Assembly: GCF_053078305.1 (NCBI RefSeq) | Contig: NZ_CP166879.1 | DNA: 64,000 nucleotides | Strand: one strand, 5' to 3' | Shown here: positions 45,001 to 48,000 of the stretch, one piece after another | How the letters are laid out: the number at the start of each line of letters is the position of its first letter | Position numbering within the stretch: position 1 is the first letter of the stretch | Program-made: the position numbers

Positions 45001-48000
45001 CTTCCTGGTACACTCTCGCGTACTCTGCTGCAATTTTTACCCTGGTGGTCGGGTCTAGCTGTAACAATTGCTCCTGTATCCAGTCCCGATCAGCATCACA
45101 GTACTGATCGGGCATAACCGTTTTGATTTGCCTGTTCACTCACACCTCCGATGGAGGGTTATCAGGCTGTTTGCCTTACATGAAGCGGAATACCATCTTC
45201 CATGTTTGGGTAGTCATGCGGGTTTAGTTCATGGGGAGTTACATTCCAGTCTGTAGCTTTTGCCCATTCAATGGCTTTCCGCCCCTGAGGCATGTATCTC
45301 CCTGTAATAACCCCACTGACAAATCCCTGAGAAACTCCAACAATCGCCGCAAAATCGGCTTGTCTGATAGAGCTTTGTCTCAAGTACTCGTCAAGAGTCA
45401 TAGAGATCCTCCCATTTCAATTTTTCGATATTAGCTTACCTGATTTAAATGTCAATAGGCTAGCTATTTGATAAATATTTGTGTTGCTAATAAAATCGGA
45501 GGCACTATGACGAAGAAAATTACGATTACTGACAAAGACATCCAGAATGCTGAACGACTGCGCAAAATCTGGGATGAAAAACGGAAACAGCTATCCCTCA
45601 GCCAGGAAAAAGCCGCAGATATCCTCGGCTTCAAAACGCAGGGGGCTGTTAGTCAGTTATTGAACGCAAAAATTGCGTTAAATACTGAAAATACCCTTAA
45701 GTTTGCGGCTTTATTACAGGTTCCTGCGGAAGAAATTAATCCAGATCTGAGTGATTTGTTACGCAGTATTCGTACGCACACACCGGGAAACAGGCGTAAC
45801 CTGTTCGAGAAATATTACGAATATCCATTACTCTCCTGCGTGCAGGCTGGCGCATTCTCAATGGATGATTTTTCGTACACCGCAAAGGATGCGATTAAGT
45901 GGATCTCCACCACCACAAAAGCCAGTGACAGGTCGTTCTGGCTGGAGGTCAAGGGGCATTCAATGACCGCGCCACAGGGAGGTAAACCCAGCTTCCCTGA
46001 AGGTATGCTGATACTTGTTGACCCTGAACGGGAAATCGAGGATGGCGATTTTTGCGTGGCCCGAATGAACGGCGATGAATTCACCTTCAAACGGTTCATT
46101 CGTGAGAGCGGTAAAGCGTACCTGGAGCCACTCAACCCACGATTCGACATGATTGAGTGTAACGAAAACTGCCAGTTTGTCGGAAAGGTCATAAAGTCGC
46201 AGTGGAATGATGAGACTTTTGATTGAACTCACAGGATGATATCAATAACCTTGCAGGGAGGCTATTTTATTTCCTCTTTCAGCGAAAAATCTCCGAGAAC
46301 CCTCGCCCAATGCGGGCGGGGAGCAGTCGCAATCAAGTGAGCCATAAATGAACAAAGACAAATCCTTGACACAACAAGTGGAAGAAATACTTAGCAAGCA
46401 AAAAGTTAGCGAGCAAGGAAAAATGATTCAATCATTAAAGAACATGGGCTTGATCAACAAGCCTGTTTTTACTTTGGCTTATGGACCAGATATTACAACC
46501 TGCCAAATGCACCAATAACAAAACCCGGCCTTGGTGCCGGGTTTTGTTTGCCTCCTGCTCGCCCCACCATTTACCAGTGCGCCGTAAATTCCCCATTCTT
46601 CGGCGGTGAGGATGTCAAAGACGAAGGGAACATTAAGCCCCTGAGTGATGGTTGACTTCTTTTTCCAGCGCCTTATTAACAAAGGCGTTCAGTGATAAAT
46701 CTTCTTCCATCGCCATTTCAGCGACCCGACGATGCAGTTCTGGATCAAGTCTGACGTTAAACACACCTTTAAACGGGGTATCAGGCTCCTTTCCATCCTC
46801 CACACAAGACTGTAAATACAGCTCAACCGATGTCTTAAACTCCTGTTCCAGTTCAGCTAATGTAGAAGCCTCATAAGTTACCAGGTCTCGAATAAACGCC
46901 AGTTTTCCGTACAGGATATTATTTTCAAAATCTGGTTCTACTGTACCTAAATATCCTTTATATTTTAGATGCTTCATAATACCCCAGCCTCTTTCAGATT
47001 CTGTTTAATCGCTTTCAGCGTTCCACCTTTAATATAACTTTCTGGATGTGGGCGATGCATTAATATGGTGTGGTTGATTTCAGCATTGAAAAACCGCACT
47101 CTTGAGCCCTGCATTTCCTTTTTGACATATCCCAGAGAGGAAAACAAAACGACCAGCTCATCCCATTCAAACGTTTTTTTACTGTTTAAAAACTTTTCCA
47201 GTAGCTTATCTGCTTTCCCCATACCCACATAATCTCATCTTCGCTACATTGCAACTAATTATAGTTACAGGCAGTGTTTTTGTCAAAAGCCACCAAGCCC
47301 GCTGGGTTCTCTTTGACTGTTCGCTGCTTTTCCTGGTGTTATCCGGGGGCTTTTCCCTCACGCCAAATCTCACACAGAGTAACCGGCCTCAGCGTCGGTT
47401 TTTCTTTGCGCATCCTCCATAACTCACCACCTGCATTATCCTCGCTTATATTTTTTACATAAATAAATTAATCTAAAAATCAATCACATAGATTAAAATT
47501 AAATCAAATTATTAGCCTTACTATTGACTATGATAAGTTGAGCTTATTATATTTTACCCAAGCCAGAAACATCGCGCCCTTACACAGGGCTACATAAATC
47601 AGTCGTACGGCGCGACTTAACCCGCCGCAAAATGCTCTTTAACAATCTGGAGCTTTACAGCGTCAATGACCTGTTTAGACCCCTACACGTAAACGTGCTG
47701 TATCATCGGGTGCGATCCGGTCGATGAGAGAGTATCCCCGCGCGAGAGCGAGAACGGCGTGAGAACGGGCAACACTGGCAGGAAGTTGGCGCTGACCAAT
47801 ACAGGGAATGTTTTGGGGTGCTGAGAGTGCCACCAAAGCGTTGCGTGAAATAGCGATGCCGTCCCAACCCTGTAGCAAAAGTAATGATTGGATACCATAA
47901 GACCAATCACAATCATTCTACGATTACCTATGCCGCACAAAGTTATTTTTTCAACACAATGTTCAAGTTTTCAACTGACTTCTTTATACTACCGCGTAGG

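What the first reader, a model, noticed from the sequence alone, without database searches (positions are those of the whole stretch)
46227..47228. Immunity-region island: small ORF plus convergent hicAB in the rex-equivalent position
Downstream of cI, where lambda carries rexAB, the element has a 56-codon ORF (46348-46518) with a bidirectional terminator and a convergently oriented hicA-hicB pair. A toxin-antitoxin module expressed in the lysogen next to the repressor is a plausible abortive-infection or prophage-stabilising device.
Basis: partly seen in the sequence, partly recalled or inferred. Interest (0 to 1): 0.45.

Follow-up and report, generated by a model that had tools for sequence, protein, structure and literature searches.

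The report
Plasmid-type HicAB beside Stx-prophage repressor
Just downstream of the repressor gene of a Shiga-toxin prophage lie a self-contained HicA/HicB toxin-antitoxin pair, almost identical to one carried by IncX4/IncI2 resistance plasmids, and an unrelated leftover small gene from a different cassette; this is an ordinary example of a known hotspot for accessory genes, and what it does for the prophage has not been tested.

Summary
The island is two unrelated cassettes, not one unit.

1. **orf56 is a stranded gene.** It is the second gene of a widespread, uncharacterised "SDH-family ClpP-fold protease + orf56 + terminator" cassette. Here the protease is deleted and only its last 13 nt remain.

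2. **hicAB is autonomous.** It has a consensus sigma-70 promoter (47286..47258) and a palindrome over the -10. It is the "HicA^O B" subfamily of IncX4/IncI2 plasmids (HicA 96-99%, HicB 94-96% identical; dN/dS 0.01-0.07). An IncX4 copy is published as toxic and neutralised.

hicAB lies beyond the cI-operon terminator, so it is not co-transcribed with cI. Lambdoid phages mEp234, HK106 and mEp506 already carry a related hicAB in place of rexAB, and this slot is a known mosaic hotspot. Relatives hold an R-M system, a Panacea TA or the SDH protease there.

A defence or stabilising role is plausible but unshown, and the two prophage HicAB systems tested so far were negative. Verdict: new member of a known kind, low to moderate interest.

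The parts
45498..46226 (+). cI-type repressor (HTH_3 + Peptidase_S24). Context: it defines the slot.
   Evidence: Pfam. 96% nucleotide identity to the cI of Oslovirus Stx2 phages. The match to those phages ends at 46240, just after the stop codon.
46261..46334 (.). Filler of unknown origin at the deletion joint. Its core, 46279-46328, is a roughly 50-nt repeated motif with a GC hairpin.
   Evidence: The whole filler is shared with only 2 of 5426 E. coli genomes. The core recurs at mostly 90-96% identity in unannotated intergenic DNA on about 100 plasmid records, once about 75 nt upstream of a TnpB gene.
46335..46347 (+). Last 13 nt (including the TAA) of a deleted SDH-family ClpP-fold protease gene.
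   Evidence: The alignment to L002 and L006-L015 starts exactly here. In those loci a 300-aa PF01972 protease ends with TAA directly abutting the orf56 ATG.
46348..46518 (+). orf56: an intact 56-aa protein of unknown function, the stranded second gene of the protease cassette.
   Evidence: phrog_28875, E = 1e-30; dN/dS about 0.2. The AF2 model shows a helix plus a beta-hairpin and has no fold match.
46517..46548 (.). Bidirectional intrinsic terminator. It ends the cI-orf56 transcript (+) and the hicAB transcript (-).
   Evidence: 13-bp perfect stem (I14); folding. The same terminator follows orf56 in other prophages, about 450-700 nt before N.
46549..46632 (-). hicB 3' untranslated tail. 46570-46632 travels with hicAB in prophages but is not found on plasmids.
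   Evidence: Plasmid similarity starts at about 46617.
46633..46977 (-). hicB antitoxin (114 aa) with a C-terminal ribbon-helix-helix.
   Evidence: Pfam HicB 71 bits. Weak RHH matches. phrog_9151. 110/115 aa identical to IncX4 HicB. dN/dS 0.02-0.04.
46974..47222 (-). hicA toxin (82 aa). It overlaps hicB by 4 nt (ATGA).
   Evidence: Pfam HicA_toxin 45 bits. AF2 pLDDT 91. Best PDB folds are 1whz, 6g26 chains E/F and 4c26, all HicA. 79/82 and 81/82 aa identical to the IncX4 and IncI2 copies. dN/dS 0.01-0.07.
47250..47286 (-). hicAB promoter: -35 TTGACA (47286-47281), 17-nt spacer, -10 TATAAT (47263-47258). The palindrome TGTAACTA-TAAT-TAGTTGCA (47269-47250) lies over the -10 and is the presumed HicB operator.
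   Evidence: 12/12 consensus match. Promoter and palindrome are conserved in the IncX4, IncI2 and second prophage copies while the flanks differ.
47317..47382 (+). 3'-terminal remnant of the gene that partners a Panacea-domain protein in related phages.
   Evidence: Aligns to the end of the 126-aa gene in L003/L004. A short repeat, CTGTTCGCT, lies at the joint.
47381..47409 (+). Second terminator-like hairpin on the backbone, 78% similar to the terminator after orf56.
   Evidence: stem 47381-47400 plus T tail; D1.

Best explanation
The region is a joint between two independent cassettes in the variable slot between cI and the early-left operon of a Shiga-toxin-converting lambdoid prophage. Cassette 1 is the tail of an 'SDH-family ClpP-fold protease + orf56 + terminator' operon that normally follows cI. 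Here the protease has been deleted, and orf56 and the terminator are left behind. orf56 is probably still transcribed by read-through from cI, because no terminator lies between them (inferred). Cassette 2 is a complete class-4 type II toxin-antitoxin module, hicA-hicB, of the 'HicA^O B' subfamily found on IncX4/IncI2 plasmids. It sits on the opposite strand, beyond the cI-operon terminator. Proposed working: a consensus sigma-70 promoter drives hicA-hicB as one overlapping (ATGA) bicistron (shown in sequence). HicB binds the palindrome over the -10 through its ribbon-helix-helix domain and autorepresses, and it also neutralises HicA (inferred from family knowledge; toxicity and neutralisation are published for an IncX4 copy in PMC11878559). 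Free HicA, a dsRBD-fold mRNA interferase, arrests growth bacteriostatically (inferred). Transcripts end at the shared bidirectional hairpin (inferred). The module is therefore expressed independently of the lysis-lysogeny switch. Its benefit to the prophage is unproven; the candidates are phage defence, retention or competition, or none at all.
For: Anatomy. Both HicA and HicB score above the Pfam cut-offs. The HicA model has the HicA fold. There is near-identity to the IncX4 and IncI2 plasmid copies, with the promoter and palindrome conserved while the flanks differ. Purifying selection is strong, dN/dS 0.01-0.07. Toxicity and full neutralisation are published for the IncX4 p14EC007a pair, described there as overlapping ORFs with no internal terminator, as here (PMC11878559). 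orf56 is independent of hicAB: it follows the SDH protease in 10/10 loci sampled for its commonest variant, none with hicAB, while hicAB occurs without orf56 in L003 and on about 790 plasmid records. Homology to the protease cassette begins 13 nt before the orf56 ATG. The slot is variable: relatives carry an R-M system plus a Panacea TA, or a TM protein plus the SDH protease, at the same place. The hotspot is noted in the literature (PMC8585504, citing Degnan 2007).
Against: No expression data exist for this locus. The canonical catalytic His of HicA (GSH motif) is Arg here, so the catalytic mechanism of this subfamily is not established. GSR is typical of the subfamily (113 of 135 sequences in the representative alignment), and two other His residues are nearly or fully invariant. 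I could not confirm that p14EC007a carries exactly this sequence, and pJIE143 (JN194214) was not in the collection. The HicB N-terminal domain fold was not tested. pL/oL were not located securely. Whether orf56 is translated without its upstream coupling partner is unknown.
Confidence: 0.78

Rival explanations
1. One reading: hicAB is an abortive-infection defence. An infecting phage disturbs the HicB:HicA balance (by host transcription shut-off or a phage trigger), and the freed HicA degrades mRNA and aborts the infection, protecting lysogen kin.
For: The slot carries proven or likely defence cargo elsewhere: rexAB in lambda and bstA in BTP1 (PMC8585504), and PstI/BsuBI-type R-M and Panacea TA modules in close relatives. 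HicA genes are often found in defence islands (PMC10865869). The module is constitutively expressible from its own strong promoter.
Against: There is no PADLOC hit. A review reported no HicAB with demonstrated defence as of 2024 (PMC11594946). The P. putida prophage HicAB2 and the Adephagia HicAB-like pair gave no protection against the phages tested (PMC12894663, PMC11594946). The HicB of the other plasmid subfamily was stable for 12 h in lysate, which argues against activation by antitoxin decay (PMC11878559).
Confidence: 0.3
2. hicAB is an addiction or competition module. Cells or recombinant prophages that lose the cassette are arrested, which favours retention of this immunity-region variant or of the prophage.
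For: Near-identical copies sit on conjugative IncX4/IncI2 plasmids. The IncX4 copy gave a small competitive advantage, 3:1 after 80 generations (PMC11878559). A Paracoccus prophage HicAB stabilised a plasmid (PMC11594946).
Against: A maintenance role was discarded for the IncX4 pJIE143 copy (PMC11594946). The P. putida prophage HicAB2 had no effect on excision or stability (PMC12894663). The island is rare, 7 of 5426 complete E. coli genomes, so there is no sign of a sweep.
Confidence: 0.25
3. hicAB is a selfish passenger with no benefit to phage or host. It simply moves between plasmids and prophages and persists because it is hard to lose.
For: It is a compact autonomous cassette with its own promoter, operator and terminator. 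It is found in three different neighbourhoods within the same slot and on two plasmid groups. Its frequency is low.
Against: Strong purifying selection on both genes across lineages that are 9-11% divergent at the nucleotide level shows that function is maintained. This is also expected of a selfish TA, so the evidence does not discriminate.
Confidence: 0.3
4. orf56 and hicAB form one three-gene functional unit, with orf56 acting as a regulator or sensor of the TA.
For: They are adjacent and share one terminator. They co-occur in 7 E. coli genomes.
Against: orf56 is found without hicAB in 10/10 loci sampled for its commonest variant, always after the SDH protease. hicAB is found without orf56 in L003 and on about 790 plasmid records. 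The two lie on opposite strands. Similarity to relatives breaks between them, at 46568/46570.
Confidence: 0.03

Closest known systems
HicA^O B of IncX4 (and some IncI2) conjugative plasmids (Lin et al. 2025, PMC11878559; pJIE143, p14EC007a)
   Same: Same subfamily. HicA is 79/82 (IncX4) and 81/82 (IncI2) aa identical; HicB is 110/115 and 108/115. The ORFs overlap with no internal terminator. The TTGACA-17-TATAAT promoter and the palindrome over the -10 are the same.
   Different: The host replicon is an Stx prophage, not a plasmid. Nucleotide identity is only 89-91%, so this is not a recent direct transfer. The 3' tail and the terminator differ: here the terminator is borrowed from the neighbouring phage cassette.
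hicA-hicB-orf in the immunity regions of lambdoid phages mEp234, HK106 and mEp506 (GenBank EF120460/EF120461; Degnan et al. 2007, cited from PMC8585504 and from my own knowledge)
   Same: The same slot (between cI and Timm/oL/pL, replacing rexAB) and the same extended-HicA/RHH-HicB lineage. HicB is 42% and HicA 35% identical, with the GS-x and H-x-PHP motifs shared.
   Different: There hicAB is co-oriented with cI, lies inside the cI operon before Timm, and has a third gene. Here it is convergent, lies beyond a terminator and has its own promoter.
Phage lambda rexAB
   Same: Position downstream of cI, and the status of lysogen-expressed accessory cargo.
   Different: There is no sequence or domain relationship. 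rexAB is co-transcribed with cI, whereas hicAB is not. Rex is a sensor plus membrane channel, not an RNase TA.
Pseudomonas putida prophage P1 HicAB2 (PMC12894663)
   Same: A prophage-borne, functional HicAB TA.
   Different: A different host and phage, and not in the immunity slot. It was tested and had no role in prophage stability or in defence against the phages tried.
SDH-family ClpP-fold protease + orf56 cassette of lambdoid and P22-like prophages (uncharacterised; phrog_11747 + phrog_28875)
   Same: orf56 and its terminator here are 88-98% identical at the nucleotide level to that cassette.
   Different: The protease gene is missing from the window, so the cassette is incomplete.

Membership tests
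HicA toxin (PF07927) | Matches the family profile above the curated threshold | tested here: met
   45 bits against a cut-off of 27, covering the full 58-position model. phrog_8887 'toxin' at E = 9e-35.
HicA toxin (PF07927) | [quoted passage not shown] | tested here: met
   AF2 pLDDT 91, pTM 0.79. The top four Foldseek PDB hits are all HicA: 1whz, 6g26_E, 6g26_F, 4c26 (probability 1.00-0.77, TM-target 0.59-0.72, rmsd 2.4-2.8 A). E-values are modest (0.02-0.5) because the protein is short.
HicA toxin (PF07927) | Conserved catalytic histidine (GSH motif of the characterised HicAs; from my own knowledge of the E. coli, Burkholderia and Yersinia HicA literature) | tested here: inconclusive
   The position reads GSR here and in 113 of 135 sequences in the representative alignment. 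H56 (132 of 135) and H59 (135 of 135), in the H-x-P-H-P motif, are effectively invariant. Which residue is catalytic was not determined.
HicA toxin (PF07927) | Growth arrest on expression, relieved by the cognate HicB | not testable with these tools
   Published for an IncX4 HicA^O B pair (PMC11878559). A representative IncX4 copy is 96% identical to the window protein.
HicB antitoxin (PF05534, class 4 with RHH) | Matches the family profile; C-terminal ribbon-helix-helix DNA-binding domain | tested here: met
   PF05534 at 71 bits against a cut-off of 21. Sub-threshold RHH matches at residues 64-108: PF20605, PF01402, PF23807, PDB CopG 9kkd at E = 0.044 and Arc-like PHROGs.
HicB antitoxin (PF05534, class 4 with RHH) | N-terminal partial RNase-H-like fold that caps HicA | not tested
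There was no Pfam hit for residues 1-53, even at E <= 10.
Type II TA operon architecture (hicAB order) | Toxin gene first, adjacent or overlapping antitoxin gene, and a palindromic operator at the promoter | tested here: met
   hicA and hicB overlap by ATGA. The TGTAACTA-TAAT-TAGTTGCA palindrome lies over the -10 and is conserved in four lineages.
HicA^O B subfamily (Lin et al. 2025) | Overlapping ORFs, no internal hicA terminator, and high similarity to the IncX4 copy | tested here: met
   4-nt overlap, no intergenic region, 96% aa identity.
Lambda RexAB-type exclusion system | RexA/RexB homologues co-transcribed with cI | tested here: not met
   No Rex domains. hicAB is on the opposite strand, beyond a terminator. 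Only the position is shared.
SDH-protease/orf56 cassette | A PF01972 protease immediately upstream of orf56 (TAA-ATG junction) | tested here: not met
   Only 13 nt of the protease remain in the window. orf56 and the terminator are present.
Known anti-phage defence systems (PADLOC-DB v2) | Profile match to a catalogued defence protein | tested here: not met
   No hits for orf56, HicA, HicB or the SDH protease.

The most novel reading that the evidence does not exclude
The slot downstream of cI in these Stx-type prophages may work as a stack of exchangeable defence cassettes, each ending in a similar Timm-like terminator that doubles as the recombination joint. The two terminators here are 78% alike over 27 nt. 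On this reading, the plasmid-type HicAB would be a true anti-phage abortive-infection module, which would be the first HicAB shown to defend. The orphan orf56 would belong to a still-undescribed 'ClpP-fold SDH protease + 56-aa protein' system that occupies the rex slot of many lambdoid and P22-like prophages.
Probability: 0.15. Interest if true: 0.55.

Novelty: new member of a known kind. Interest (0 to 1): 0.25.

Why it matters
The finding documents exchange of the same HicAB module between IncX4/IncI2 plasmids, groups known for carrying mcr-1, and Shiga-toxin prophages. It also adds a convergent, self-promoted variant to the known cases of hicAB replacing rexAB. If the module turned out to defend against phages or to stabilise the Stx prophage, that would bear on Stx-phage persistence and spread, but nothing here shows it. 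The more useful lead is a by-product: the uncharacterised SDH-protease + orf56 cassette that commonly fills the rex slot.

Tried and rejected
**Searches that found nothing**
- PADLOC scan of orf56, HicA, HicB, the SDH protease, the TM protein and the Panacea pair found nothing relevant.
- A PDB sequence search with HicA gave no hits. With HicB it gave only a weak RHH match.
- An Rfam scan of 44000-50000 found nothing inside the island, only sRNA-Xcc1 at 48757.
- A literature search for the SDH protease in prophages found nothing relevant.
- pJIE143 (JN194214) is not in the plasmid collection, so I could not compare it directly.

**orf56 as a DNA-binding protein: rejected**
- The only support was weak matches to the ArgR N-terminal domain (16.6 and 17.2 bits, far below the cut-offs).
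- The AF2 model is a single long helix plus a beta-hairpin, not a winged helix. Only one of the five models is confident, and there is no fold match.

**orf56 as part of the TA: rejected** on distribution.

**Inverted repeat bracketing the island: treated as chance**
- The 23-nt repeat 46280-46302/47304-47326 is 78% complementary, but similar-scoring pairs occur elsewhere in the same scan.

**Locating oL/pL: inconclusive**
- Searching for operators shared with oR gave no clear answer.

**Phage-collection search: superseded**
- The DNA-level search found no phage carrying this hicAB. A protein-level search was needed to find mEp234 and HK106.
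Full report
**Context.** The window carries a Shiga-toxin-converting lambdoid prophage.
- stxB is at 38416-38685 and stxA at 38696-39652; Q is at 40149-40682. A DEAD-box helicase and a primase-like gene form the replication module.
- The immunity region reads cro (45162-45401, -) and cI (45498-46226, +; HTH_3 + Peptidase_S24).
- cI and cro are 96% identical to those of Oslovirus Stx2 phages. That similarity stops at 46240, 14 nt past the cI stop, and resumes at 47317.
- The finding therefore sits in a replaceable segment of about 1.06 kb between cI and the early-left genes (183-aa ORF, antA, kil, gam, recT, exo).

**Observation.**
- The 56-codon ORF is at 46348-46518.
- A perfect 13-bp inverted repeat at 46517-46529/46536-46548 is flanked by A and T runs. 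It folds strongly on either strand.
- hicB is at 46633-46977 and hicA is convergent to orf56. Pfam scores are 71 and 45 bits, both above the curated cut-offs.
- Two corrections apply. hicA starts at the ATG at 47222 (82 aa, MGK...), as in RefSeq and every homologue.

**The island is two cassettes, not one.**
- orf56 has few relatives, only three 90%-identity clusters, all from Enterobacteriaceae, but its commonest variant is frequent.
- In all ten contexts returned for that variant, orf56 directly follows a 300-aa SDH-family ClpP-fold serine protease (PF01972) with a TAA-ATG junction. It sits immediately downstream of cI, and in several of these loci an N antiterminator gene follows 450-700 nt later. 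None of the ten has hicAB.
- orf56 is thus normally the last gene of a cI-protease-orf56 operon, and the hairpin is that operon's terminator, the counterpart of lambda Timm.
- In the window, similarity to this cassette begins at 46335, 13 nt before the orf56 ATG. The protease gene has therefore been deleted.
- The 74 nt between the conserved post-cI tail and that point are filler. Its 50-nt core recurs in unannotated intergenic DNA on about 100 plasmid records, once just upstream of a TnpB gene. Its nature is unresolved.
- orf56 shows dN/dS of about 0.2 against the common allele, from only 13 substitutions. It belongs to phrog_28875.
- Its AF2 model is a long helix plus a beta-hairpin. Only one of five models is confident, and there is no fold match. 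Its function is unknown.

**hicAB.**
- Similarity to relatives breaks again at 46568/46570. From about 46617 to about 47288 the sequence is 89-91% identical to hicAB on about 790 plasmid records, nearly all conjugative. The 33-kb records are typed IncX4 and the 60-kb records IncI2.
- At the protein level HicA is 79/82 (IncX4) and 81/82 (IncI2) identical. HicB is 110/115 and 108/115.
- Synonymous divergence is large and non-synonymous divergence tiny (dN/dS 0.01-0.07), so both genes are kept functional.
- The promoter hexamers and the palindrome TGTAACTA-TAAT-TAGTTGCA over the -10 are conserved in the IncX4, IncI2 and second prophage copies, although the flanks are unrelated. This is the classic layout of an antitoxin-autoregulated type II operon.
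- hicA and hicB overlap by ATGA. Lin et al. 2025 (PMC11878559) name exactly this IncX4-predominant type HicA^O B: overlapping ORFs with no internal terminator. They show that the pair from IncX4 plasmid p14EC007a is toxic and fully neutralised in E. coli K-12, and that it gives only a slight edge in plasmid competition (3:1 after 80 generations).

**HicA fold and motif.**
- The AF2 model is confident (pLDDT 91). Its four best PDB matches are all HicA structures.
- The family's usual GSH motif reads GSR. A survey of 1.84 billion representatives shows this is typical of an N-terminally extended subfamily: R in 113 of 135 aligned sequences, with H56 (132/135) and H59 (135/135) effectively invariant in an H-x-P-H-P motif.
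- Which residue is catalytic remains open.

**How it most likely works.**
- Shown in sequence: an autonomous operon made of promoter, operator-like palindrome, hicA and hicB. It converges on the terminator of the cI operon and so lies outside the pRM/pRE transcription unit.
- Inferred from family knowledge and the plasmid orthologue: HicB dimers repress the promoter through the RHH domain and cap HicA; free HicA cleaves mRNA and stops growth.
- The module should therefore be expressed at an autoregulated level in lysogens, and during lytic growth, regardless of repressor state.
- The right edge of the island (47317-47382) is the 3' stump of the gene that partners a Panacea-domain protein in relatives. 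A short repeat sits at the joint. A second terminator (47381-47409) follows that is 78% similar to the first.
- This history points to cassette swapping and deletion at this slot.

**What it is for.** This is not determined.
- *For defence:* the slot holds rexAB in lambda and bstA in BTP1, and Owen et al. (PMC8585504) cite Degnan et al. 2007 for it being a mosaic hotspot. Close relatives of this prophage carry a PstI/BsuBI-type R-M system plus a Panacea TA, or a TM protein plus the SDH protease, at the same place.
- *Against defence:* there are no PADLOC hits. The 2024 HicAB review found no experimentally shown HicAB defence and reports that a maintenance role was discarded for the IncX4 pJIE143 copy (PMC11594946). 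The P. putida prophage HicAB2 is a potent TA with no effect on prophage stability or phage resistance (PMC12894663).
- I therefore rate defence, addiction or competition, and a selfish passenger as roughly equally likely (0.25-0.3 each).

**Novelty.**
- hicAB in the rex slot of lambdoid phages is already on record. mEp234, HK106 and mEp506 carry hicA-hicB-orf between cI and Timm, annotated as such in GenBank EF120460/EF120461. Their proteins belong to the same extended-HicA lineage, with 35% and 42% identity.
- RefSeq already names the window's two proteins in near-identical prophages (WP_000513533.1 and WP_000681611.1).
- Three things are new. The cassette is the plasmid (IncX4/IncI2) type. 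It is inverted and self-promoted rather than part of the cI operon. It sits in an Stx phage.
- It is rare: 7 of 5426 complete E. coli genomes carry the island, and only 2 have the same left joint. At least three architectures exist.
- This makes it a new member of a known kind and of modest interest. The uncharacterised SDH-protease + orf56 cassette, whose orf56 is nucleotide-identical across ten prophages with different immunity and replication modules, is the more promising lead, but it is incomplete in this window.

Noticed in passing
window 38416-40682 (-): The element is a Shiga-toxin-converting prophage. stxB is at 38416-38685 (SLT_beta, 161 bits), stxA at 38696-39652 (RIP, 131 bits) and antiterminator Q at 40149-40682. 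A nanS-p-like esterase is at 35725-37743. The closest complete-genome relatives that share the same left joint (JNEC-KY176 and FHI_NMBU_10) have no stx gene annotated in the stretch examined between Q and the esterase; a DUF7661 gene lies there instead (shown for JNEC-KY176).
   Followed up: partly
window 48757-48845 (+), upstream of antA 48886-49524: An Rfam sRNA-Xcc1 match (65.9 bits against a gathering score of 53) lies directly upstream of an AntA/AntB antirepressor gene. Related Oslovirus phages annotate isrK and C4 antisense RNAs at the equivalent place. This suggests P1 immI-like antisense control of an antirepressor in the early-left operon.
   Followed up: partly
L002 5111-6184; L006-L015 4098-5171: A two-gene cassette, a 300-aa SDH-family ClpP-fold protease (PF01972, phrog_11747) plus orf56 (phrog_28875), fills the slot downstream of cI in many lambdoid and P22-like prophages with different cI, cro and replication modules. 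orf56 is nucleotide-identical in all ten loci sampled. There was no PADLOC hit and no literature was found. It is an uncharacterised candidate accessory or defence system.
   Followed up: partly
window 46279-46328: A 50-nt motif with a GC hairpin (TCAGCGAAAAATCTCCGAGAACCCTCGCCCAATGCGGGCGGGGAGCAGTC) recurs at mostly 90-96% identity in unannotated intergenic DNA on about 100 E. coli plasmid records. On a P1-like plasmid it lies about 75 nt upstream of a TnpB/InsQ gene, and on an IncFII plasmid it lies next to yacAB. It may be a small mobile repeat or an IS200/IS605-type end.
   Followed up: partly
window 45400-46260 compared with L001/L022: cI is mosaic. The closest island-sharing relatives match the window only from 45815 onward (the cI C-terminal S24 domain). 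The N-terminal DNA-binding half of cI, and cro, match Oslovirus Stx2 phages. This implies a recombination joint inside cI and a different immunity specificity from those relatives.
   Followed up: partly
L003 6872-7722; L004 2616-6066: The same slot in related Stx phages carries a PstI/BsuBI-type R-M system and a Panacea-domain protein with a 126-aa partner (a PanA-type TA). The last 66 nt of that partner gene survive in the window at 47317-47382.
   Followed up: partly
window 46525-46551 and 47383-47409: The two terminator-like hairpins that flank hicAB are 78% identical over 27 nt. Each cassette may bring its own Timm-like terminator, and these may serve as recombination joints.
   Followed up: no
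window 46974-47222 (HicA residues 39-60): This HicA subfamily replaces the canonical GSH motif with GSR (113 of 135 sequences in the representative alignment). It has a nearly invariant H56 (132/135) and an invariant H59 in an H-x-P-H-P motif. The active-site arrangement may differ from that of the characterised HicAs.
   Followed up: partly
window 48068-48619 (+): A 183-aa ORF with a signal-peptide-like N-terminus (MMRKILRTTLIATILFSPIVQAEW) is the first gene after the presumed pL region. It belongs to phrog_19473 (unknown function) and has only a weak PADLOC Csx23 match (E = 1.6e-4). No N antiterminator gene was found in this prophage.
   Followed up: no
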